64,000 nucleotides of DNA from a virus (Duplodnaviria > Heunggongvirae > Uroviricota > Caudoviricetes). Positions within the stretch are counted from its first letter, which is position 1, and each line of letters opens with the position of its first letter. The stretch lies in the IMG/VR virus record IMGVR_UViG_3300031555_002904. One strand, given 5' to 3'. The position numbers were made by a program, and so were the translations under genes. This document shows positions 35,942 to 62,959 of this stretch, one piece after another. The notes below the pieces were generated by a model, which saw only the letters and a program-made list of their open reading frames with translations, searched no databases and was not told where the DNA came from.

Positions 35942-36053
35942 AAAAATCTTTCTTGATTTTTCAAAAAAAATATGTTATAATATATATGTAAGGTAAAGAA
36001 AGTGATATGCACGGATTGCTTTCTTTCTCCATACAACCTTTTCCATTGTAAAA

Positions 36054-36230
36054 AAGACGGTAACAGCAATTATGACGAGCTTGTGGTGCCGCAGGTCGTT
36101 GGTTCGAGTCCAACCGTCCCTCCCATCACCTGGCAAGGTGGCGTAGGTGAACTACTAAGGGGACCTTCGGGTCCCTGATATGAGGGGCGTAGCTCAGCTG
36201 GATAGAGCAGCGTATGTCAAATTCCGTCTT
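36054..36230 (+). ncRNA. ACAGCAA-stem RNA A, enclosing circularly permuted tRNA-His(GUG)
   Basis: AAGACGG/CCGTCTT termini; 3' tRNA piece 36079-36125 precedes 5' piece 36182-36212. Confidence 0.8.
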
Positions 36231-36612
36231 GGCAAAATAAAAATCAAGGGCAAAAGTGCTTATTTGATTTTTATAAAAAAATATGATATAATATATATGT
36301 AAGGTAAAGGAAATGTGAAAACTCTCCTCAAGAGAAATGACTCGACATTCTGCTAATGCCTCGAGGGTGAAGTACTTGAGAATAAGATCCATTTCTGAGA
36401 AGCTCTCATCAAGTTGACGCAGGTAGCAGCTGGTCCGGGACTTCGATCATCTTCTCACCTTACATATGTGTTATATCAACACAGAAAGGTAGAATCTCGT
36501 ATACCTTGGGTGGGACCAAAAGTACGACGGCAGATGCAAGCGAGAAGTATCCGGGTCTAGCCATGGACTCATGTAACCGGGGAATACCCATCCCAAAATG
36601 GCAACTAAATAT

Positions 36613-37334: not shown

Positions 37335-37408
37335 GCTGATGTAGCTCAGTCGGGAGAGCGGTCCCTGTAGGAGGGGACAGGCCGGCGGTTCGAGTCCGTC
37401 CATTGGCT
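37335..37408 (+). pseudogene. tRNA-like element with irregular anticodon loop, no CCA
   Basis: D and T arms canonical; loop TGTAGGAG is 8 nt. Confidence 0.5.
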
Positions 37409-48403: not shown

Positions 48404-48811
48404 ATGTTATTTGAAACTAATCGTGATAAGGGTCGCGCTGGTATGGCGATAGCAATCGCTTATTTTGGAGCCAATGGATATACAGTAAATGTGCCTCTAA
48501 ATGATACTCAATGGTATGATTTAGTTATTGAAAAAGACGGTGAGTTCAAAACCGTTCAATGTAAAGCAACTGGCAGTGCTGATAATGTAGTTTCTATGAA
48601 GAGTGCGGGTGGCACAAAAGGTAGTGTTTATGATTCTGTACTAAATCATCCTGTTGATTATTTGTTCTGCTTAGATGGCGAAATGCATATGTATGTTATT
48701 CCAGTGCAAGATTTGCGAGATTATGGAGTAAGTAAACAAATTTCTTTGCGTACTCAAAAATCTGCAAATGGACAAGGTTTCCAAACTTATCAATATATGG
48801 TGTCTTTGTAA
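48404..48811 (+). CDS. PD-(D/E)XK endonuclease (I-Ssp6803I/PDDEXK_5-like)
   Basis: KGRAG...GYTV..P..D..YDLVI...VQCK. Confidence 0.75.
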   Translation: MLFETNRDKGRAGMAIAIAYFGANGYTVNVPLNDTQWYDLVIEKDGEFKTVQCKATGSADNVVSMKSAGGTKGSVYDSVLNHPVDYLFCLDGEMHMYVIPVQDLRDYGVSKQISLRTQKSANGQGFQTYQYMVSL

Positions 48812-48819
48812 TACCATAT

Positions 48820-48905
48820 GGGTCAGTAGAGTGTAATTGGTACCACCCCCGACTGTAAATCGGGTTCGTATGACATTGTAGGTTCAAGTCCTACCTGGCC
48901 CACCA
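48820..48905 (+). tRNA. tRNA-Tyr(GTA)
   Basis: CCCGA-CTGTAAA-TCGGG; class II; CCA. Confidence 0.85.
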
Positions 48906-49836
48906 TAGGCTCCATGCCTAGACATAGTTATGCGTACAAGTCAAAATGAAACGCTTAGAGTTATCGTTCTCTTCCAAAAACTTCTACAATCAAATAGAAT
49001 GCCATTCGCTGCGAATATAGGCGGGGTACGATGCAAAGCTCAGAAATGAGTTCCCAAATCCTCGTTAGGGTAATGACGTGAGAACTGCTCCTATGGCTGA
49101 AGGTTCTTGGTGGCATTTGGATTAGGTGAGGTTTTTTCCTTTCGCCTGGTGACTGTGGTGAAACGATACATCCCGGCCCGTGCTGATACGTATCAGACAT
49201 CTAATTCAACGCTCCTTATTGCGTTAGATAAGGTAAGAGTTTGCTGATTTCTCTTTTGACCGGTCTGGTTGAATAATCAGATTGCAGTAGTTGTATGAAT
49301 TGATATTACGATAATTTCTTCTTCATAGTCTACGGTCTATGTTGTAAGCAAATTATCCCTCTGCTGTAAGGTCCCTGGAGCATAAACTGAGTCGGGTTCC
49401 GAATATGAAGATTAAGTCCAGGCGCCCCTACTGCGAAATAAGTAGGTGAGATTGGGTAGCGATAATGATACAGACTCGCAACTGCTATATGATTACATAA
49501 AAGTATAAAAATCTCATTCTTGATTGAGTAGCGCTCGGTAATATAGCCCAATACTGAGGTAAGGCGATGAAAAGCGAAAGATTGATTTTGAGTGGAAAAT
49601 CCATATTGGATCGAAAACAATACCGATGGAAAGTAAAAATACCTCAATTTTGTCACAACACGGATACAAACCCGACAAAGTATGAGCGTTAGGTGGTAGC
49701 ATATGGCGACGGAAAGACCGTTAGCGCATATGGAGTAGGTAGAGTTTGAAATTCAATATGGGTTTTTTCTTGCGGCCGCCCGTCCGTAAAGCGCGCAATA
49801 GTGTGCTTGTCAGCGGATTTGGGCGACCCGTCCGCA
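48906..49836 (+). ncRNA. second candidate large structured ncRNA region
   Basis: ~900 nt without a credible ORF or RBS, rich in hairpins, co-transcribed with tRNAs. Confidence 0.4.
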
Positions 49837-49896
49837 CTTGATTTTTATAAAATTTTTTTGTATAATATATACATAAGAAATGAAAATAAATAAAAA

Positions 49897-49991
49897 AAGA
49901 CCCTTCCTGCAATCTTTTTTCTTGGATAATAATTTTTACTTCAAATGAAAATTTAGCGGTTCGAATCCGCGTAATAAATGAAAAGGGTCTT
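49897..49991 (+). ncRNA. ACAGCAA-stem RNA J (CTGCAA variant) with UCA anticodon-like loop and T arm
   Basis: AAGACCCTT/AAGGGTCTT termini; TTTTA-CTTCAAA-TGAAA; GCGG-TTCGAAT-CCGC. Confidence 0.65.
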
Positions 49992-49997
49992 GTTTAT

Positions 49998-50072
49998 GCC
50001 CCGATAGTTCAATCGGTAAAACAGTGGATTTGTAATCCTCCGTTCTCGGTTCAAGTCCGGGTCGGGGCTCCA
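49998..50072 (+). tRNA. tRNA-Thr(TGT)
   Basis: cloverleaf, CCA. Confidence 0.88.
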
Positions 50073-50148
50073 ATGGTGAAAACTCGTTCTGGGAGCAAAC
50101 TTACGAGTTACCCTTTTTGACACTCCCACAAATAAAAAAGAGTAAAAG

Positions 50149-50511
50149 GTGAAGAAAATGAGATATCCAGTTGAAAAGTACAATATTGTTGTGCATCAGC
50201 ATAAGGACTACAAGACCACTGAAATCATCGCTTATTCCACTTACGCCGGTAAGGTTGTAAAGGGAAATGCAATCGTTCACGAGAATGATACCTACGATGA
50301 AGAGAAGGGCAAGAAGTTGGCTATTGCCCGCTGCGCTGAGAAGATCGCCCGCAAGCGTCAGGCTCGTTCCGCTCGCTTGCTGAAGAAGGCTCATGAGCAG
50401 CTGAAGATGGCCCAGAAGTATGTTGATGATATGGCTCAATACAATGCTGATGCCTGTGCTGAGGTTTGTGAAGCTCAGAGTGATCTCCAGAAGATTCTGG
50501 CAAAGATGTAA
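50149..50511 (+). CDS. hypothetical phage protein
   Basis: STYAGK.V.G.A..HENDTYDEEKGKKLAIARC; terminator after. Confidence 0.75.
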   Translation: MKKMRYPVEKYNIVVHQHKDYKTTEIIAYSTYAGKVVKGNAIVHENDTYDEEKGKKLAIARCAEKIARKRQARSARLLKKAHEQLKMAQKYVDDMAQYNADACAEVCEAQSDLQKILAKM

Positions 50512-50548
50512 TTCGATAGAAGGGGCGCTATGCCCCTTCAATAGAGAT

Positions 50549-50637
50549 GGACAGGTGGTAGAGTCTGGCTTATTACACCGGTCTTGAAAACCGGCGGGCG
50601 TAATGCTCCGGGGGTTCGAATCCCTCCCTGTCCGCCA
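50549..50637 (+). tRNA. tRNA-Ser(TGA)
   Basis: class II cloverleaf, CCA. Confidence 0.92.
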
Positions 50638-50714
50638 TCAGTTGTAGTTCAAGAAGAAGAATACCTTCGTCGACGTCGAGGAGATGTTTGGTGCTACCCG
50701 CCCAAACCGACTGA
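50638..50714 (+). pseudogene. degenerate tRNA-like element
   Basis: TCAGTTG/CGACTGA acceptor; D-like, anticodon-like and T-like arms with non-canonical loops. Confidence 0.4.
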
Positions 50715-50744
50715 GCCTAAACTAAATAGAGAGGATGATGTGAT

Positions 50745-51074
50745 TTGATTGGTGCTTATAATAGAGATGTATCAATTCGTAAAGCCAAGAGAAAGCGTAG
50801 AATTGACATTCAGCACAAAACCAGTTATAATGATGGAAAACCTGTTCCTTGGTATAATAATCTCCATCAGTATTCAAAAAACAAAATCCATTGTTCTTGT
50901 CCCGATTGCAATACCAAAACTCGCAACAAGGGTTCCAAGAGACACAGAAGCGGAAACTATAATCAAGCAATTCTTTATCGTGCCTCCGATTTGCGGAAGG
51001 TAGTTGCTATGGATGAAGATTTGCGCGAAGCCGGTTATTTTGCGCCTAAACACAAGCGCAATCGTTACGCATAA
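50745..51074 (+). CDS. basic hypothetical protein
   Basis: HQYSKNKIHCSCPDC motif; GAGGA RBS. Confidence 0.65.
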   Translation: MIGAYNRDVSIRKAKRKRRIDIQHKTSYNDGKPVPWYNNLHQYSKNKIHCSCPDCNTKTRNKGSKRHRSGNYNQAILYRASDLRKVVAMDEDLREAGYFAPKHKRNRYA

Positions 51075-51269
51075 TGGGGCACCGCAAGATGCGGCCGCAG
51101 CCTCCTCGTTACTTTTGGCCCGACACAGATGGTTGTTGGTGTTGTAAAAATCGAAATGGTTGTTCGGGGTGTAAATTTTTGAAACGCTATATTGCTGAAG
51201 GTAAAGGTCGCAATAAAAGAAAAATTTAGCGAAATGAAAAAATTTTTATAGAAAGGAAAATGAGAAAAT

Positions 51270-51536
51270 ATGGCTAGTATTAAAGTTTTTTAGAATAATC
51301 GCTACCAATCTCATTATGTTCAATTTGTAGCAGACACTGCAGATGATGTAAAACTTTTAAAGGTAGCAGAACTCGCTATGGGTAGTGAAGTATATGTTAT
51401 TCAAGAAAAAAGAACTTATATTCTTGGTAGCGACAAACTCTGGTATTCTAAGGCGGTAAATGATGACGCAATTATTGAGTGTGATTGCGTTGAAGAATCT
51501 ACTATCTGGGAAGATTTGCCTCAACCCAATAATTGA
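51270..51536 (+). CDS. hypothetical protein (1 in-frame TAG=Gln at 51291)
   Basis: MASIKVF*NNRYQSHYVQFVADTADDVKLL...AMGSEVYVIQEKRTYILGSDKLW. Confidence 0.65.
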
Positions 51537-51574
51537 CTTTATAAAAAATTTTTGATATAATATAATATAAGATA

Positions 51575-51703
51575 AAGGCATAAACAGCAATTTATTGATT
51601 AAGCCTGCCAAGCCGGAAGTCGTAGGTTCGAATCCTACCGCCCCTGCCATATAGGGGTCGTAGCTCAGATGGTAGAGCGCCGTTAAATATCAAATTGTGC
51701 CTT
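51575..51703 (+). ncRNA. ACAGCAA-stem RNA K, enclosing circularly permuted tRNA-Gly(GCC)
   Basis: AAGGCATA/TGTGCCTT termini; 3' piece 51603-51649 (ends CCA) precedes 5' piece 51653-51682. Confidence 0.82.
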
Positions 51704-51712
51704 GTGGAATAT

Positions 51713-51787
51713 TCCGGTGTCGTTCAATGGCTAGGACGGCGGGCTCTAACCCCGCATATCTCTGTTCGAGTCAGAGCGCCGGTGCCA
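51713..51787 (+). tRNA. amber suppressor tRNA(CTA), Gln-like
   Basis: GCGGG-CTCTAAC-CCCGC; unpaired 1:72, G73, CCA. Confidence 0.9.
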
Positions 51788-51862
51788 TGGGGGTTAGCGT
51801 AGCGGTAGCGCGGCGGTCTCTAAAACCGTTGTGGCTGGGTTCGAATCCCAGGCCCCCCGCCA
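51788..51862 (+). tRNA. amber suppressor tRNA(CTA), Gln-like
   Basis: GCGGT-CTCTAAA-ACCGT; TGGGGGT acceptor like the two tRNA-Gln genes; G73, CCA. Confidence 0.9.
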
Positions 51863-51921
51863 TTGTGCGGAAAGTTGATTTTTATAAAAAAATATGATAT
51901 AATATATATAGAAGATAAAGA

Positions 51922-51997
51922 AAGGCTCATACAGCAAATTTCACTTTTTCTAACCGACATAAAATTGGTAATGCTTGAGAGAAAAAAAATGAGCCTT
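51922..51997 (+). ncRNA. ACAGCAA-stem RNA L (anticodon-like hairpin only)
   Basis: AAGGCTCAT/ATGAGCCTT termini; ACCGA-CATAAAA-TTGGT. Confidence 0.72.
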
Positions 51998-52005
51998 GTA
52001 AATCT

Positions 52006-52092
52006 GCCGGCGTGGTGGAATAGGTAGACACCAGGGACTTAAAATCCCTTGGGCCTGTGCCCGTACCGGTTCGAGTCCGGTCGCCGGCACCA
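52006..52092 (+). tRNA. tRNA-Leu(TAA)
   Basis: class II cloverleaf, CCA. Confidence 0.92.
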
Positions 52093-52169
52093 CTTATCTT
52101 TATTGAAAGGATGTGTTTCCAATGTGGAGGTTGAGTGTCTTCTAACTACCGTAAAGGAGGTTAGAAGTA

Positions 52170-52466
52170 ATGAGTAGATCATTCAAACACACCCCTCGCT
52201 CGGGTGATACAAAAGACAAATTCTTTAAAAGATATGCTAATCGCAAAGTGCGCCGTCTTCCCATCGACGAGCATCCTAAAGGTAATACATACAAAAAGGT
52301 GTTTTGCCAATATGATATTTGCGACTATGAAACAGTCGGCACTTCTTTCGAGCAATATTGGGAGAGTCTCGTCAAAAGATGGTACGAGTGGGATTGGAGA
52401 TATTCCGAATTTCCCGATCGCGAAGAAGCATATCAAGAATATCGTCGTTGGTTCATTAGAAAATGA
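52170..52466 (+). CDS. hypothetical phage protein
   Basis: MSRSFKHTP...KRYANRKVRR...YKK...YDICDY. Confidence 0.7.
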   Translation: MSRSFKHTPRSGDTKDKFFKRYANRKVRRLPIDEHPKGNTYKKVFCQYDICDYETVGTSFEQYWESLVKRWYEWDWRYSEFPDREEAYQEYRRWFIRK

Positions 52467-52585
52467 GTTGATTTTTCAAAAATTTTTTGGTATAATAATA
52501 GTACAGGAAATAAAGAAAAAATCTTCTCCCCTTTCTTTAAAGTTCCTATCTTCTCGGGGGCATTCCTCGGAGTGCCCCATTCTTT

Positions 52586-52660
52586 GCGGGTGTAGTACAT
52601 CGGCTAGTGCGCCTGCCTTCCAAGCAGGATAGAGGGGTTCGATTCCCCTTACCCGCTCCA
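52586..52660 (+). tRNA. tRNA-Gly(TCC)
   Basis: cloverleaf, CCA. Confidence 0.9.
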
Positions 52661-52787
52661 TATAAATAATTCGCCAGGTGTTGATACTGGTCCGTCTATT
52701 GCGGATAGAAGCTCGAGGAGGGCTAGCTCGCAAATTCCGTTATTAACAGGTGGCCTCGACGGAAAAGTAATTATTTATAGAAACACT

Positions 52788-52921
52788 GAGAGCCATACAG
52801 CAAACCAGCTTGTACTTAATAGTACAGATCGCTACTTCAAGTAGCTTCTATGATGACTTAACAGTCGCGTTTTTAAATGATAGAAAGAAGAATGGTTTTA
52901 CTAAAAAAACTTTCGGCTCTC
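52788..52921 (+). ncRNA. ACAGCAA-stem RNA M (degenerate permuted tRNA-like arms)
   Basis: GAGAGCC/GGCTCTC termini; hairpins TGTACT..AGTACA and GCTAC-TTCAA-GTAGC. Confidence 0.65.
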
Positions 52922-53012
52922 CGGGAATGTGATAATCAGTAGTAGATGTGATGAGGCTCTCGACACTCATCATCGCATAAATGAAAGTTACCACCAAAGG
53001 AGAGTATTTATA

Positions 53013-53106
53013 CAAGACATATACAGCAAAATTTTCAAAATGATAATACTCAATATTTGACAAACAAACATAGAGAATGATCTTTTTAGAAACATCTTAT
53101 GTCTTG
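53013..53106 (+). ncRNA. ACAGCAA-stem RNA N
   Basis: CAAGACATA/TATGTCTTG termini. Confidence 0.68.
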
Positions 53107-53698: not shown

Positions 53699-53931
53699 AG
53701 TCATTATTGCTCGACCGGTCTCGCCTTAGTGCACTGGGAGAAATTCCTCGAGACCGCCCTATGGGGTGCGAATAAGGTTTTACAGTTGGAACTAAGTGGC
53801 AATCGGATATCTGGAAATCAGATCCGACCTAAGTCCAAAGATTAGCCTTATTCGCTGTTTTTTATTTTATTTGATTTTTATAAAAAAATATGTTATAATA
53901 TATATGTAAGATAAAGAAAGGGGAAAATCCT

Positions 53932-55510: not shown

Positions 55511-55562
55511 TTCTGCTTAGCAGGTTATAAATATACTATAAAAATTGAAAGGATGTTTAATT

Positions 55563-56768
55563 ATGGGACTTACTGAAAATGGACGGTCTGCACTAACACA
55601 CATTAAACAGCACTGTTTACTCACTTCTTTTTCTGCAAAAGAGTTGAGTGATGCCTGCGGAGTAAAAATTGCTCCTGCCACATTAACTGGCGTTGTAAAT
55701 CATGGATACCTCAACCGACTGGGAGGCTCTCCGGTGCGCTATGAAGTCGTAGATGATTTCTTGGATTTGATGAAAATCCTTGAGGAAGAAGAGAATTCCA
55801 AAGGATGCGATAATTCCAATCTACGTACCGCAAAAAGAGTAAAAAATGATGAATTTTATACTCGCTATGAAGATATCGAAGCTGAGGTTATGAAATATCG
55901 TAAGTATTTCTATAATAAGGTTGTATATCTACCTTGTGATGATCCAGCTGAGAAAAAGAGCGAATTCTGGTCTTTCTTTGTTAACCGGTTTGATGCTTTT
56001 GGTCTAAAGAAACTAATTGCCACTCATTATGATGAGAATGGCAAGGCATATAAGATTTGGATTGATGCTGATACCACTGGCGACGGCGCCATTGATGATA
56101 GCGATGCTTTGCAAGAGGATTTGACTGGAAATGGTGATTTCCGCAGTCCTGAGTGCATTGCTATTTTGGAAGAGTGCGATATTGTTTGCACCAATCCTCC
56201 TTTCTCTATGTTTAGAGAATTCATTGATACAATTCTCACTCACAACAAGCAGTTCCTTATTATTGGCAGTAAAAATGCTTATACCTATAAGGAAATTTTT
56301 ACCCGTATTTGGCGAAATGAAATTTGGCCTGGCTACAATGCAGTTCATAAGTTTATCCAACCCGATGGATCTATTAAATCTTTCGGTAATATTGGTTGGT
56401 TTACCAATCTACCCACCTCTAAGAGAGAGGAAGAATTGATCCTTACTAAAACTTATGATCCCGCCATTCATCCTAAATACGATAATTATGACGCGATTAA
56501 TGTGGATCGTGTTGTAGATATTCCAATGAATTACGATGGAGAAATGGGTGTTCCTATTTCCTTTATTGATAAATATAATCCTGATCAGTTTGAACTGGTT
56601 GGAGGTTTCAATGGATATGCTCATCCAGATTATGAGCATGGTTTAATCTGTGGTACTCCTACCACTTATCAAGATAGTAAGACTGGTAAAACTAAAACTT
56701 GGAACGGTCCTACTGTTGATGGGCAGACTAAATATTTTAGAATCTTGATCCGACATAAAAAGTCTTAA
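55563..56768 (+). CDS. adenine-specific DNA methyltransferase, EcoRI family, with N-terminal HTH-like extension
   Basis: AKRVKNDEFYT, PCDDP, GDFRS.EC, DIVCTNPPFSMFREF, MGVPISFIDKYNPDQFE. Confidence 0.88.
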   Translation: MGLTENGRSALTHIKQHCLLTSFSAKELSDACGVKIAPATLTGVVNHGYLNRLGGSPVRYEVVDDFLDLMKILEEEENSKGCDNSNLRTAKRVKNDEFYTRYEDIEAEVMKYRKYFYNKVVYLPCDDPAEKKSEFWSFFVNRFDAFGLKKLIATHYDENGKAYKIWIDADTTGDGAIDDSDALQEDLTGNGDFRSPECIAILEECDIVCTNPPFSMFREFIDTILTHNKQFLIIGSKNAYTYKEIFTRIWRNEIWPGYNAVHKFIQPDGSIKSFGNIGWFTNLPTSKREEELILTKTYDPAIHPKYDNYDAINVDRVVDIPMNYDGEMGVPISFIDKYNPDQFELVGGFNGYAHPDYEHGLICGTPTTYQDSKTGKTKTWNGPTVDGQTKYFRILIRHKKS

Positions 56769-56782
56769 AAGGAGATCTACAT

Positions 56783-57973
56783 ATGTTTCAGCGGAATAAT
56801 ATGAAAACTGAACGCATTTTTGTTAAAGTGCGTGATTTGTGCGCCGGCTATGTAAATAATTCCGATACCAATGAAGAGCGTGGCGTTTATGCCTATGGCG
56901 GTAAATTGTGTGTCCGTCCAGAATTCCAGCGTTCTTTCGTATATAACCGTGAACAGGCCAATGCAGTAATTGATACTGCATTGGCAAATCTCCCTCTCAG
57001 CATTATGTATTGGGTAGATAACGAAGATGGTACTTATGATTGTCTCGATGGTCAGCAAAGAACTATCAGTTTGTGTGATTTTATTTCTGGTGATACAACT
57101 CAGACCAGTTTTAAAGCAAACTGGTTGAGAAATGGCAAAGAAACATATTTTGACATCCTTGAACAGTATGATCCAGATTTAGCTGAAGCATTGCTTGATT
57201 ATGAAATTGAGGTTTATCTGTGCAAAGGCACCAAGAGAGAGCGGTTAGATTGGTTTAATCGTATCAATATCGCTGGTGCACAATTGTCTGCACAAGAAAT
57301 CCGCAATGCCAATCACACTAGCGTGTGGCTAACAGACGCTAAGAGATATTTTAGTCGAGCAAGTAAAAATGGTTCCTGCCCTGCAGAGGTTTTGTTTAAG
57401 AAATACAGTAAAAAAGATGCAAACCGACAAGAGCTTTTGGAGCAAGTAATCTATTGGCGAGTCAATGATAAGAGTGATGAAGCAATTTGCGCGTACATGG
57501 AACAGCATATGAATGATGCAGATGCTTCTGATTTGTGGAATTATTTCAATGAAGTAGTTGCATGGACTAAAGCCAATTTTGAATATTATGATGACGGCTT
57601 TAAAACTGTTGAATGGGGCTGGCTATATAACAAGTACAAAGATGAGGAGTTAGATCCCAGCGAAATTGCTGATCTACTCAAGGAATTATTCAGCGCTAAG
57701 CTTGCTAAGGAATTGACCTGTACGAAAGCTGCTATCGTTGAGTATTGTATTACTAAAAATGAGCAGTTACTGACACATCGTAAATTTACTGATAGTCAGC
57801 GTAAATTACTCTACAATAGACAAAACGGTATTTGTCCCGATTGCGGGCAGTCATTTGCTATGGCTGATATGCATGCTCATCATATTCAGTCTTGGCGTCA
57901 AGGTGGCACTACTGAGCTTGCAAATGGAGTAATGCTTTGTACTGAATGTCATCATCATCGACACGGCACTTAA
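56783..57973 (+). CDS. DUF262 (GmrS/ParB-like) plus C-terminal HNH nuclease
   Basis: RPEFQRSFVY, LDGQQRTISL, FNRIN..G..L; CPDC..HAHH..GG...LCTECH. Confidence 0.85.
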   Translation: MFQRNNMKTERIFVKVRDLCAGYVNNSDTNEERGVYAYGGKLCVRPEFQRSFVYNREQANAVIDTALANLPLSIMYWVDNEDGTYDCLDGQQRTISLCDFISGDTTQTSFKANWLRNGKETYFDILEQYDPDLAEALLDYEIEVYLCKGTKRERLDWFNRINIAGAQLSAQEIRNANHTSVWLTDAKRYFSRASKNGSCPAEVLFKKYSKKDANRQELLEQVIYWRVNDKSDEAICAYMEQHMNDADASDLWNYFNEVVAWTKANFEYYDDGFKTVEWGWLYNKYKDEELDPSEIADLLKELFSAKLAKELTCTKAAIVEYCITKNEQLLTHRKFTDSQRKLLYNRQNGICPDCGQSFAMADMHAHHIQSWRQGGTTELANGVMLCTECHHHRHGT

Positions 57974-58147: not shown

Positions 58148-59098
58148 ATGAGTAATGCATTTCTGAATGGAATGAAGACTGCTACCAACTACACTCTGAC
58201 TGAGAATGGTGCAGTTACCCACAAGTCTACTATGAATGCTCTGCTGGATCTCTTCGCCATGGGTGCGGCCTACCGTACTCGTTCTGACGAGGATGTTATC
58301 CTGCTGTTCAAGAACGCCTTCGCCGAGGATCCTACCTATGCGCTGAAGTGTCTGTTCTACATCCGTGACGTGCGTGGTGGCCAGGGTGAGCGTCGTTTCT
58401 TCCGTGTTGCGACCAAGTGGCTGGCTTCCTACAATACCGACGCTATGCAGCGCAACCTGATTCACGTTCCTGAGTTCGGTCGCTGGGATGACCTGTTCGT
58501 GTTCATCGGTACTCCTCTGGAGACCCAGGCTCTGAACATCGTTAAGCACCAGCTGGCTCTGGACGTCCAGTGTAAGACTCCCTCTCTGCTGGGTAAGTGG
58601 ATGCCTTCCGAGAACACCAGCTCTGCTAAGACTCGTAAGACTGCCGCAAAGGTTCGTGCCTTTATGGGTATGACTCCCAAGCAGTATCGTAAGACTCTGT
58701 CTGTTCTGCGTGCCCGCATCAACGTCCTGGAGCGTCTGATGTCTGAGGGTCGTTGGGATGAAATCGAGTTCGACAAGATTCCTTCCAAGGCAGGTCTAAA
58801 GTATAAGAACGCCTTTGCTCGTCATGACATTGAGCGTATGAAGCGCAATCCCGAGGTTAAGACTTATGCGGATTTCGCAAAGGATACTACTACCAAGGTT
58901 AATGCCAAGGACCTGTATCCTTATGAGGTTGTTGACAAGGCAACCCGTTGCTTCCATGCCGAGGACATTGGAGTTGGCAACATTTCCTATGTGTCTGGTA
59001 TGTCTCCTTCCATCTTCGAGCAGATTATGTCCGGCAAGACTGGTCTGGATTTGATGTTTGAGAAGCTGGACTCCCCTCGTTATGAGTGTATCCGCTAA
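58148..59098 (+). CDS. DUF2828 (TROVE/Ro60-like) protein, apparently lacking most of the vWA region
   Basis: TENGA..ST..LLDLF, FYIRDVRGGQGERRFF, EFGRWDDL, SLLGKWMPSE, YRKTLS.LR, LYPYEVV; C-terminal VSG.SPSIF. Confidence 0.82.
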   Translation: MSNAFLNGMKTATNYTLTENGAVTHKSTMNALLDLFAMGAAYRTRSDEDVILLFKNAFAEDPTYALKCLFYIRDVRGGQGERRFFRVATKWLASYNTDAMQRNLIHVPEFGRWDDLFVFIGTPLETQALNIVKHQLALDVQCKTPSLLGKWMPSENTSSAKTRKTAAKVRAFMGMTPKQYRKTLSVLRARINVLERLMSEGRWDEIEFDKIPSKAGLKYKNAFARHDIERMKRNPEVKTYADFAKDTTTKVNAKDLYPYEVVDKATRCFHAEDIGVGNISYVSGMSPSIFEQIMSGKTGLDLMFEKLDSPRYECIR

Positions 59099-59177
59099 TT
59101 GAAAATGCGGCGGCACTGATAAAGTATTTACTCCAGCTGAGTTTAATGCTGCTAAAGACTCTACCACAAGCAGTTAT

Positions 59178-59399
59178 ATGTTTAATAAACTTTATGAGTT
59201 TGGCTATCTGGTTAAGCCTGCTCGTGGTAAATATGCCTTGAATATGGATAAAGTCAATTATATGACTGAAATGTATGAAAAGGCACAGGCTGGTAAAAAG
59301 GCTCGTTATGATGCCTTTATCAAAGAATGTGAAACCTATAATGAGAATGCTCGTATCTTTAACAGTAATCTCATTAAGAGTCGCCAACCTAAGCAGTGA
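59178..59399 (+). CDS. hypothetical protein
   Basis: ORF followed by terminator near 59460-59495. Confidence 0.45.
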   Translation: MFNKLYEFGYLVKPARGKYALNMDKVNYMTEMYEKAQAGKKARYDAFIKECETYNENARIFNSNLIKSRQPKQ

Positions 59400-59670
59400 T
59401 GACCTGATGATGGAGAGGCTGAACAGCGAGCGCTACGCCGTTATTCACTAATCGGTCTCTTTTCCCTTCCGAGAAATCGGGAGGGATTTTTTTTTGCTCA
59501 TTTATAAGAGCAATAGACCTGCTCCGGCCGGCCTCAGTCGAAAGGGCCGAAAACCCAAAACTAAAAATGGCCTAACTAATTTTTAATTGTAAATGGGCAT
59601 ATATAATCAATTTTATTATTTTATTTTTCAACATTAAAAGGAATAATAGTTCTTGGAAAGGAGAATTTTT

Positions 59671-60329: not shown

Positions 60330-60431
60330 TGGGAGACTTTGTGATTTGTTCTCAATGTGTCTATTGGGAAGACTGTGAAATGAAAGAAAGCCGAGACGGC
60401 TGTTATTTTGGAGAAACGGAGGATAATCTCA

Positions 60432-60791
60432 ATGAAGATTTGGATGGATGATGTGCGTCCCGCACCGGCCGGATATATTCGAGTTTATGACGTTGATGGC
60501 GCCATCTGCGAGATTATCCGCTGTAAAAAAGAAACTGACTTCCTCTGGAAGCAGTATATCATGGGTTATATGGAGCGAGAGCTGTTTGAAAAGTGCTTCG
60601 CAGTTTTCAATATCGAAGAAGTTTCTTGCGACAATGACCTAGGCGAAGGTATTCCCGAAGGTTATAAGCTCTTGGACTGGCTGGAAGCTACTGGTCACAA
60701 TGTTCCTATTCGTATTCATTCTGCTAATCCTGTGGCAAGACAGAGAATGCAGGCAATTATTCAGCGAAATGGCTGGACGGAGGTAAAGTAA
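60432..60791 (+). CDS. cyclic-phosphate-processing receiver-domain protein
   Basis: MKIWMDDVRPAP...SCDNDLG...GYKLLDWL...IHSANPV.RQRM. Confidence 0.78.
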   Translation: MKIWMDDVRPAPAGYIRVYDVDGAICEIIRCKKETDFLWKQYIMGYMERELFEKCFAVFNIEEVSCDNDLGEGIPEGYKLLDWLEATGHNVPIRIHSANPVARQRMQAIIQRNGWTEVK

Positions 60792-62071: not shown

Positions 62072-62959
62072 ATGACCAAAGATTATCCTGAAATTGAAAA
62101 AGCATTCGCGGATTTGGCTGCAAAAACTTATATCGCAAGTCCTAAAGAAATCCGTGCGGCCCTTATTATGAAGCGAGTACAAGACCACTATGATGAAGCA
62201 CTTCAGTATTTTCCAGAAGAGCAAATCGTAGGTGTGTTCTTACAGGGTAGTCAGAATTATGAGCTGGACTATGAGGGTTCTGACGTTGATACCAAATTGA
62301 TTGTAGTTCCGAGTTTCAAGGACATTTGCTTGAACAAGAAACCCGTTTCTACTACTCATGTCCGAGCAAATGATGAGCATACTGACTGGAAAGATATCCG
62401 TCTGTATATGGAAACTTTCCGCAAACAGAACCTCAACTTCCTTGAGATTCTGTTTACTGATTTCTATATCATCAACCCGATGTATAGGGAACAGTGGGAC
62501 CGACTAGTTGCGGCCCGTGAATTCATCGCTCGTATGAACGTCCATCGTGCGGTTAAATCTATGAAGGGTATTGCGATGGAGAAATATCACGCAATGGAAC
62601 ATAGATACCCCGCAAAAGTTGATATCATCGACAAATATGGCTATGATGGTAAGCAAGTATCTCATTTGGATAGAGTAGATGACTACTTGGAGAGATATAT
62701 CGCTGGTGAGGCTTACAAGGATTGCTTAATCCCTACTAGCAGCCGTAGACCCAGAATGATGGATTTCAAAATGCTGAGCGTGTACTCTCTTGAGGAAGCT
62801 CGAGTGCTTGCGAAAGAAATCTTAGACCATGTTGTTGAAATCGCAGATGAGTTCTGCGCGGCTCACCCTGACCAAGAAGAAGCTTGGGTTCGTGAGCTTT
62901 TGGAGGACGTTTCTTACAACATCATGCGTATTTCTGTAGAAAAGGAGCTAAAAGTATGA
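62072..62959 (+). CDS. Pol-beta superfamily nucleotidyltransferase (YcgL/RlaP-like)
   Basis: FLQGSQNY.L...SDVDTK...D...KQNLNFLEIL...YDGKQVSH. Confidence 0.8.
   Translation: MTKDYPEIEKAFADLAAKTYIASPKEIRAALIMKRVQDHYDEALQYFPEEQIVGVFLQGSQNYELDYEGSDVDTKLIVVPSFKDICLNKKPVSTTHVRANDEHTDWKDIRLYMETFRKQNLNFLEILFTDFYIINPMYREQWDRLVAAREFIARMNVHRAVKSMKGIAMEKYHAMEHRYPAKVDIIDKYGYDGKQVSHLDRVDDYLERYIAGEAYKDCLIPTSSRRPRMMDFKMLSVYSLEEARVLAKEILDHVVEIADEFCAAHPDQEEAWVRELLEDVSYNIMRISVEKELKV

What the first reader, a model, noticed from the sequence alone, without database searches (positions are those of the whole stretch)
36054..36230. Circularly permuted tRNA-His(GUG) gene with complete identity elements
Seen: the 3' part (GC-TTGTGGT-GCCGC, variable loop, GTTGG-TTCGAGT-CCAAC, CGTCCCTC-CCA; 36079-36125) lies upstream of the 5' part (GAGGGGCG incl. 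G-1, D arm, GCG; 36182-36212), separated by a ~56-nt hairpin-rich linker. The break is between positions 29 and 30 of the anticodon stem, and the flanks pair (TGAC/GTCA, then the ACAGCAA stem). Established: permuted tRNA genes are known from some algae and archaea and mature via a circular intermediate; I do not know of examples in phages. Inference: either splicing at 29/30 plus RNase P and 3' trimming gives a functional tRNA, or the RNA stays two-piece and chargeable while tethered to the ACAGCAA module.
Basis: partly seen in the sequence, partly recalled or inferred. Interest (0 to 1): 0.85.

Follow-up and report, generated by a model that had tools for sequence, protein, structure and literature searches.

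The report
Phage tRNA mimic on Ro-type handle
This gut phage carries a small RNA shaped like a histidine tRNA with its two halves swapped. It is most likely not a working tRNA gene: it belongs to a widespread, uncatalogued family of tRNA-mimicking "Y-RNA-like" partners of a Ro60-like protein that the phage also encodes, and it may be cut into a two-piece RNA with a tRNA-type end.

Summary
The halves rejoin into a complete tRNA-His with G-1:C73 and CCA, and a near-identical copy exists in an independent sample.

The reading as a spliced tRNA gene is not supported:
- The halves hang on a 7-bp stem plus ACAGCAA handle shared by about 12-14 small RNAs in this tRNA cluster.
- The order T arm, acceptor, D arm matches YrlA Y RNAs (Rfam E 7e-7, below cut-off).
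- In 13 orthologues the anticodon drifts (GTG 6, GAG 3, GGG 4) independently of the acceptor; the full His set occurs only here.
- There is no in-register BHB motif or splicing endonuclease, and a normal tRNA-His exists.

In 101 related viral modules the whole cloverleaf is kept, anticodon loop included (YrlA lacks it), but most acceptor ends are sealed. Viruses with such modules carry DUF2828 (35/48, against 2/27 controls), which folds like Ro60 and is encoded here.

RNase P signals are conserved in this clade (13/13 7-bp stems, 12/13 UAU|G, 11/13 C74C75), so a two-piece form is plausible; charging is untested. A conserved 56-nt three-hairpin insert occurs in different paralogues.

This scan has found the family before on other DNA.

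The parts
35953..35981 (+). sigma70/sigmaA-type promoter-like site with extended -10; a second one follows the RNA at 36264-36292, so the RNA probably heads its own short transcription unit
   Evidence: the same motif occurs 23 times in the window
36054..36060 (+). handle stem, 5' strand (7 bp with 36224-36230)
   Evidence: conserved in orthologues
36063..36069 (+). ACAGCAA box, mostly unpaired; putative binding site of the Ro60-like protein
   Evidence: shared by about 12 stem-closed RNAs of the cluster; binding is inferred
36073..36076 (+). inner helix TGAC, pairs with GTCA 36216-36219; grafts the handle onto the anticodon stem
   Evidence: GAC/GTC and GAT/ATC variants in orthologues
36079..36125 (+). 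tRNA positions 30-76: anticodon loop (GTG at 36083-36085), variable loop, T arm, acceptor 3' strand, C73, CCA
   Evidence: loop-to-T-loop pattern also matches ordinary bacterial tRNA-His genes
36126..36181 (+). 56-nt conserved insert closing the acceptor stem (two or three hairpins, the last with a UUCG loop); ends in ATAT, the leader signal of the phage's real tRNA genes
   Evidence: no Rfam match; no HDV/theta fold by my scanner
36182..36212 (+). tRNA positions -1 to 29: G-1, acceptor 5' strand, D arm, upper anticodon stem
36224..36230 (+). handle stem, 3' strand
43125..43201 (+). ordinary, uninterrupted tRNA-His(GTG) of the same phage
41429..53106 (+). region holding the other ACAGCAA-handled RNAs. 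Permuted type: 44449, 45358, 51576. Normal-order D-anticodon-T without acceptor: 41429, 43907. Short or other cargo: 43206, 45572, 47176, 49898, 51923, 52790, 53015
58148..59098 (+). DUF2828 (Ro60-like helical + vWA) gene. The copy in the window spans the chimeric join of the record and is shortened; the rest of this phage's own gene lies at the other end of the record (L001; about 519 aa whole)

Best explanation
It is a Y-RNA-like non-coding RNA, not a tRNA gene. SHOWN BY SEQUENCE: a complete tRNA cloverleaf, written in the order anticodon loop - T arm - acceptor - D arm and opened in the 5' strand of the anticodon stem, is grafted onto a handle (7-bp stem plus ACAGCAA). SHOWN BY COMPARISON: the design recurs in many phages, and those phages mostly encode DUF2828, whose model matches Ro60. 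INFERRED: the handle is bound on the DUF2828 ring as Y RNAs are bound by Ro60/Rsr. The L-shaped domain then tethers or occupies host enzymes that recognise tRNA or structured RNA (PNPase as in Rsr-Y RNA-PNPase and phage phiLo, or anticodon nucleases and modification enzymes). The dozen paralogues offer a panel of different loops. INFERRED FOR THIS CLADE (about 50%): host RNase P cuts at UAU|G and the 3' side is trimmed or repaired to CCA, giving a two-piece RNA held by its own stems, as in M. smegmatis YrlA. This copy could then be histidylated (about 25%), but the amino acid is not under selection. Origin (inferred): the 3' half of a bacterial-type tRNA-His gene joined to the 5' half of a downstream tRNA gene, with later swaps of acceptor stems.
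For: YrlA model hits this copy (38.6 bits) and orthologues or paralogues (36-59 bits). Family of 101 modules, features not used in selection: pairs 27:43 and 28:42 form across the two halves (89/101 Watson-Crick each, shuffled 34-38); 30:40 and 31:39 form inside the 5' piece (70 and 76, shuffled 45 and 32); U33 78, R37 98; Levitt pair G15:C48 60 and A15:U48 35. The pattern holds after dereplication to 75. Acceptor loop 8 nt or less in 72/101, CCA in 21/101. Anticodon and acceptor are uncoupled in 13 orthologues. DUF2828 in 35/48 module-bearing records against 2/27 other tRNA-cluster viruses (Fisher p 3e-8, kinship not corrected), and both control positives carry the handle RNAs. A Ro-like gene of some kind is in 21 of 22 near-complete records. 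The top 13 Foldseek hits are all Ro60 (E 3e-6 to 4e-4); VIA-align Z 13.8, rmsd 8.5, 381 aligned to phiLo Ro60. RNase P signals: 7-bp stem 13/13, G at the predicted 5' end 13/13, TAT before it 12/13, C74C75 11/13; TAT precedes 23 of 42 ARAGORN-called tRNA genes. G-1:C73 microhelices are HisRS substrates (PMC4357726).
Against: Binding of the RNA to DUF2828 is not shown. The gene lies 22 kb away, whereas YrlA is usually within 4 kb of rsr (PMC4201824). The GNCGAAN0-1G motif is absent and Pfam TROVE is not found. The protein model is moderate (pLDDT 71, TM 0.3-0.4 to Ro60). One complete module-bearing record (G031) has no detectable Ro-like gene, and with the broad phrog_850 profile 7/27 controls also have a strong Ro-like match. 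The processing signals could be inherited from recent tRNA ancestry rather than selected. The effector role is analogy only. Transcription is not proven: coverage in RNA libraries comes from contigs and may be DNA.
Confidence: 0.75

Rival explanations
1. A true permuted tRNA-His gene: the ends are cut at 29/30 and ligated to a circle, RNase P and 3' trimming open the acceptor, and the product decodes His codons.
For: The rejoined sequence is a perfect tRNA-His with G-1:C73 and CCA. Both phage genomes encode a distant DRB0094-like RNA ligase (below cut-off).
Against: No BHB in register: exon 24-27 is GCAG and the facing flank is TGAC; an EndA-type cut around TGAC/GTCA would leave 9 extra bases. 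No tRNA-intron endonuclease or RtcB in the record. The bases at both junctions vary among orthologues. Orthologues would mis-code. Most relatives have sealed acceptors. An ordinary tRNA-His exists at 43125. Known permuted tRNA genes depend on BHB and occur in algae and one archaeon (PMC3978253).
Confidence: 0.03
2. A free-standing decoy for host anticodon nucleases or tRNA-modifying enzymes. ACAGCAA is a processing or stability signal and DUF2828 does not bind it.
For: The anticodon loop is kept in canonical register across the family, unlike YrlA (10.1101/312249). In this clade U33-G34-N35-G36-G37 is invariant while N35 varies, which fits enzyme recognition (G36G37 is the TrmD signal; own knowledge) better than decoding. 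One complete record lacks a detectable Ro-like gene.
Against: Strong co-occurrence with DUF2828. Several handle RNAs of the window carry no tRNA-like cargo. The phage's roughly 40 real tRNAs would already serve as decoys.
Confidence: 0.12
3. An unligated two-piece tRNA that is charged with histidine and used on the ribosome.
For: All identity elements are present in this copy; two-piece tmRNA shows that a broken tRNA-like domain can work (PMC3978253).
Against: A branch of more than 10 bp at 29/30, probably carrying a 58-kDa protein, sits where the small subunit grips the anticodon stem (inference from known ribosome contacts). Only 2 bp close the loop. Anticodon and acceptor are uncoupled in orthologues.
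Confidence: 0.03
4. A non-functional relic of recombination between tandem tRNA genes.
For: The order 3' half - spacer - 5' half arises naturally in tRNA arrays; CCA and the TAT leader look like array leftovers.
Against: Own promoter-like site, conserved handle, compensatory changes in acceptor, T stem and inner helix across 13 phages, cross-half pairing across 75 dissimilar modules.
Confidence: 0.04

Closest known systems
YrlA Y RNAs of bacteria and mycobacteriophages (Rfam RF02553; PMC4201824; structure preprint 10.1101/312249)
   Same: Order T arm - acceptor - D arm; D and T loop consensus and Levitt pair; ends paired into a long stem attached through the anticodon stem; Ro-like protein in the same genome; several paralogues per genome.
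   Different: ACAGCAA instead of GNCGAAN0-1G; a 7-nt anticodon loop is kept as a side hairpin (YrlA lacks the loop); the partner is DUF2828/DUF7788, not Pfam TROVE; about a dozen copies spread through a tRNA cluster up to 22 kb from the gene; score below the Rfam cut-off.
Mycobacterium smegmatis YrlA (PMC4201824)
   Same: 7-bp acceptor stem; there it is cut by RNase P and given CCA, yielding a two-piece RNA, the fate predicted here.
   Different: Here CCA and G-1:C73 are encoded, and a 56-nt structured insert must be trimmed away. Processing is untested here.
Thermus phage phiLo Ro60 with Yrl1/Yrl2 (PMC12135203; PDB 9KOP, 9L5Y)
   Same: Phage-encoded Ro ring with its own small RNAs; best structural match of the DUF2828 model.
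   Different: CGAA motif, RNAs beside the gene, 15-16% sequence identity to this protein.
Circularly permuted tRNA genes of algae and Thermofilum pendens (PMC3978253)
   Same: 3' half lies upstream of the 5' half, with an intervening sequence in the acceptor.
   Different: Those have a BHB at the junction and are religated to a normal tRNA. Here there is no BHB, the flanks form a conserved handle, and identity is not conserved.
Two-piece (permuted) tmRNA
   Same: Permuted gene, acceptor opened by RNase P, no religation.
   Different: No mRNA-like domain here: the RNA ends 18 nt after position 29 and a new promoter follows; ARAGORN finds no tmRNA.

Membership tests
Permuted tRNA gene (algal/archaeal type) | 3' half upstream of 5' half, rejoining to a full cloverleaf | tested here: met
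Permuted tRNA gene (algal/archaeal type) | BHB motif in register at the junction | tested here: not met
   the required central helix cannot form
Permuted tRNA gene (algal/archaeal type) | tRNA-splicing endonuclease available | tested here: not met
   PF01974 absent from the record, rings in 4 archaeal controls; host is bacterial by promoters and genes, and bacteria lack EndA (own knowledge)
Permuted tRNA gene (algal/archaeal type) | Anticodon and acceptor identity conserved together | tested here: not met
   full His set in 1 of 13
Permuted tRNA gene (algal/archaeal type) | Circular intermediate and ligated mature tRNA | tested here: inconclusive
   no such joint among those listed, but only contigs were available and 34 joints were not shown
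YrlA (RF02553) | T - acceptor - D tRNA-like domain with tertiary contacts | tested here: met
YrlA (RF02553) | Rfam gathering score of 69 bits | tested here: not met
   38.6 bits here, best orthologue 59.3
YrlA (RF02553) | GNCGAAN0-1G motif near the 5' end | tested here: not met
   sequence shows ACAGCAA instead
YrlA (RF02553) | TROVE/Rsr gene within about 4 kb | tested here: not met
   PF05731 absent; DUF2828 gene 22 kb downstream
Y RNAs (broad) | A Ro60-fold protein in the same genome | tested here: met
   moderate model, MIDAS-like DTSAS in the vWA part
Y RNAs (broad) | Bound by that protein through the terminal stem | not testable with these tools
   co-occurrence only
Two-piece tmRNA | mRNA-like domain with tag peptide after the D loop | tested here: not met
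Theta (HDV-like) ribozyme, for the 56-nt insert | Nested double pseudoknot starting at the tRNA 3' end, catalytic C in J4/2 | tested here: inconclusive
   my simple scanner finds no such fold; the published descriptor (PMC10879173) was not run

The most novel reading that the evidence does not exclude
In this phage clade the handle RNAs are matured by RNase P into two-piece, CCA-ended RNAs that are aminoacylated (histidine for this copy) while bound to the Ro60-like ring. That would be a charged tRNA mimic with an intact anticodon loop, displayed on a protein scaffold as bait or sensor, with a 56-nt module that moves between paralogues and controls or reports the processing.
Probability: 0.15. 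Interest if true: 0.8.

Novelty: new variant of a known kind. Interest (0 to 1): 0.5.

Why it matters
It removes a false 'first permuted tRNA gene in a phage' and puts a testable RNA partner beside DUF2828, a common phage protein that had only 5 passing mentions, all in plant or animal papers, in the library searched. The family keeps a full anticodon loop, which YrlA lacks, so it can test what the tRNA-like domain of Y RNAs is for, an open question in PMC4201824 and 10.1101/312249. This copy is a good test substrate because it has every His identity element, while natural orthologues supply the controls (Leu or Pro loops, sealed or CCA-less acceptors, with or without the insert). The family itself has been noted repeatedly by this scan; the uncoupling of anticodon and acceptor, the clade-wide RNase P signals and the 56-nt insert found in two different paralogues are what this report adds.

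Tried and rejected
- His-specific viral pattern: 0 hits. Orthologues were reached through the neighbouring gene instead.
- GTDB scan for the loop-T pattern: the matches printed are ordinary tRNA-His genes.
- TROVE PF05731, RtcB, tRNA-intron endonuclease and CCA-adding PolyA_pol: absent from the record. The T4 Rnl1 search rang in no control and says nothing.
- DUF2828 has no PDB match by sequence.
- Theta/HDV ribozyme in the insert: not found by my scanner; hammerhead core absent by inspection.
- Read mapping: only contigs, so no ends, strand or rare junctions. Joints into 36093-36095 and 36188 come from other tRNA-like sequences; small word shares were not used to name a habitat.
- Paper searches for ACAGCAA with TROVE, DUF2828, permuted tRNA with phage, and tRNA decoys found no description of this family; subscription papers are not covered, and two Wolin reviews were not held.
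- Complex prediction was not used, as it takes no RNA chain.

Full report
1. Observation. The sequence at 36054-36230 is as described. Joining 36182-36212 to 36079-36125 gives an ARAGORN tRNA-His(GTG) with G-1:C73 and CCA. The outer stem is 36054-36060 with 36224-36230; ACAGCAA lies beside it, and TGAC/GTCA forms an inner helix. An independent run holds the stretch on one contig with 3 differences, so it is not an assembly artefact.

2. Setting. The record is 402 kb and consists of two related phage genomes of about 200 kb in tandem (about 65-85% identical in aligned blocks), joined inside a DUF2828 gene at about window 58.3 kb. The element belongs to the first genome. It lies at the start of a cluster of 42 ARAGORN-called tRNA genes that includes an ordinary tRNA-His at 43125, between two promoter-like sites. 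The phage reads TAG as glutamine and has two CTA-anticodon tRNAs.

3. It is one of a family. ACAGCAA next to a 7-bp end-pairing stem recurs about a dozen times in the cluster. The cargo differs: permuted tRNA shapes, normal-order D-anticodon-T pieces without acceptor, or short loops. Rfam YrlA matches the element at E 7.2e-7 but only 38.6 of 69 bits; orthologues reach 48-59 bits. YrlA has the same T-acceptor-D order and occurs in phages (PMC4201824).

4. Family-wide anatomy. A scan of viral contigs plus relatives gave 108 modules, 101 long enough to score. Features not used for selection show a whole cloverleaf opened in the 5' strand of the anticodon stem. Positions 27 and 28 come from the piece after the D arm (89/101 Watson-Crick pairs each; shuffled 34 and 38). 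Positions 30 and 31 come from the piece before the loop (70 and 76; shuffled 45 and 32). Position 29 is mixed. U33 is in 78, purine 37 in 98, and the Levitt pair covaries (GC 60, AU 35). The same holds for 75 dereplicated modules. Anticodons are of many kinds. The acceptor loop is 8 nt or less in 72/101 and CCA sits at 74-76 in 21/101. So the family does not need a chargeable end, yet keeps the anticodon loop that YrlA lacks (10.1101/312249).

5. Orthologues. Thirteen were gathered: the second genome of the record, neighbours of the upstream gene in related phages, and one metagenome hit whose synteny was not checked. The anticodon is GTG in 6, GAG in 3 and GGG in 4; G-1:C73 is in 5; CCA is in 4; all three His elements together occur only in this window. 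L274 and L281 pair a Leu anticodon with a His acceptor; L273 and L278 pair a His anticodon with a Gly-like G1:C72, C2:G71, U73 acceptor. Spliced products would mis-code. What is constant is U33-G34-N35-G36-G37, a perfect 7-bp acceptor stem (13/13), G at the predicted mature 5' end (13/13), TAT before it (12/13) and C74C75 (11/13). These are bacterial RNase P determinants (own knowledge), and TAT also precedes 23 of the 42 tRNA calls in the window. The loop-to-T-loop pattern matches ordinary bacterial tRNA-His genes, so a tRNA-His origin is likely (inference).

6. The insert. The 56-nt linker is nearly invariant in 7 of 13 orthologues, with compensatory changes in its UUCG hairpin. In the second genome it sits in a different, Gly-type paralogue. 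It matches no Rfam family, my scanner finds no HDV-like fold, and in the sequences searched it was found only inside these RNAs. It behaves like a module of its own; its role is unexplained.

7. Splicing test. A BHB for a 29/30 junction needs exon bases 24-27 (GCAG) to pair with the flank, which reads TGAC. Cuts around the TGAC/GTCA helix would leave nine extra bases. The record has no tRNA-intron endonuclease or RtcB. It has a distant DRB0094-like RNA ligase, so ligation is not impossible. Contigs of RNA libraries show the region contiguous in a relative (X7) and list no back-junction, but contigs drop rare forms.

8. The partner. The phage encodes DUF2828/DUF7788 (PHROG 850 'RNA-binding protein'). 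Its model (pLDDT 71) has Ro60 structures as its 13 best Foldseek hits and Z 13.8, rmsd 8.5, 381 aligned to phiLo Ro60. DUF2828 is found in 35 of 48 module-bearing records and 2 of 27 other tRNA-cluster viruses; both of those two carry handle RNAs. Among near-complete module-bearing records, 21 of 22 have a Ro-like gene by one of four profiles. The broad profile also finds 7 of 27 controls, so Ro-like genes are not rare in such phages; the specific link is with DUF2828. Kinship was not corrected, and binding is inferred.

9. Mechanism. Most likely (0.75) the RNA is a Y-RNA-like partner of the DUF2828 ring. Its handle binds the protein and its tRNA-shaped domain tethers or occupies host tRNA- or structured-RNA-recognising enzymes, as phiLo Ro60 with its Yrl RNAs engages host PNPase (PMC12135203). 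In this clade an RNase P cut to a two-piece RNA is about even odds, by the conserved signals and the M. smegmatis precedent (PMC4201824). Histidylation of this copy would then be chemically plausible, since G-1:C73 microhelices are charged (PMC4357726), but it is not conserved. Rivals: protein-independent decoy 0.12, relic 0.04, spliced tRNA gene 0.03, unligated translating tRNA 0.03.

10. Verdict. It works like YrlA but fails its membership tests (motif, score, TROVE neighbour), and it fails the tests for a permuted tRNA gene. I found no paper on the family; earlier notes of this scan describe it on other genomes and agree, which is not independent evidence. New variant of a known kind; interest 0.5.

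Noticed in passing
whole record; join at about window 58240-58370: The 402-kb 'genome' is two related phages of about 200 kb in tandem, joined inside the DUF2828 gene; it should not be counted as one jumbo phage.
   Followed up: yes
window 58148-59400: The DUF2828 reading frame past the join lacks about 200 residues of the vWA part, and a second copy of its C-terminal tail lies about 300 bases later, around another ORF; rearrangement or assembly error.
   Followed up: partly
window 51713-51862: Two tRNAs with anticodon CTA (amber suppressors); coding density rises sharply under TAG=Gln, so the phage is recoded, mainly in one gene block.
   Followed up: partly
window 36293-36470: A second conserved, promoter-led structured RNA of about 180 nt closed by a long stem, no Rfam match, present in 6 other relatives and in the second genome; a relative's contig over 36309-36581 has depth 750 in one RNA library.
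   Followed up: partly
window 47309-47922, 42605-42715, 53768-53855: ROOL, drum and a partial OLE match inside the tRNA cluster.
   Followed up: no
window 41429-41541 and 43907-44010: ARAGORN's 'tRNA-Asn' at 41457 and 'tRNA-Gly' at 43929 are not tRNA genes but ACAGCAA-handled D-anticodon-T mimics without a true acceptor or CCA.
   Followed up: partly
window 38091, 42188, 42483: tRNAs with A34 anticodons (Leu AAG, Ser AGA, Thr AGT), unusual in bacteria.
   Followed up: no
window 37335-37408: tRNA-shaped gene with an 8-nt anticodon loop and no CCA; a similar sequence shows as a loose end in an RNA library.
   Followed up: no
window 60408-60791, 62072-62959; L363:782-1999: Possible RNA-repair genes: a cyclic-phosphate receiver domain, a nucleotidyltransferase (PHROG 388) and a distant DRB0094-like RNA ligase in both genomes.
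   Followed up: partly
window 55545-57973: EcoRI-type methyltransferase beside a GmrSD_N + HNH nuclease.
   Followed up: no
L283-L291: Several relatives carry a peptide release factor gene (RF-1/PCRF domains) just upstream of the tRNA cluster.
   Followed up: no
L362 (second genome of the record) and L278:3629: A permuted Asp-type paralogue with GTC loop, G73, CCA and a 3-nt linker, identical in acceptor in two phages; here anticodon and acceptor do agree.
   Followed up: partly
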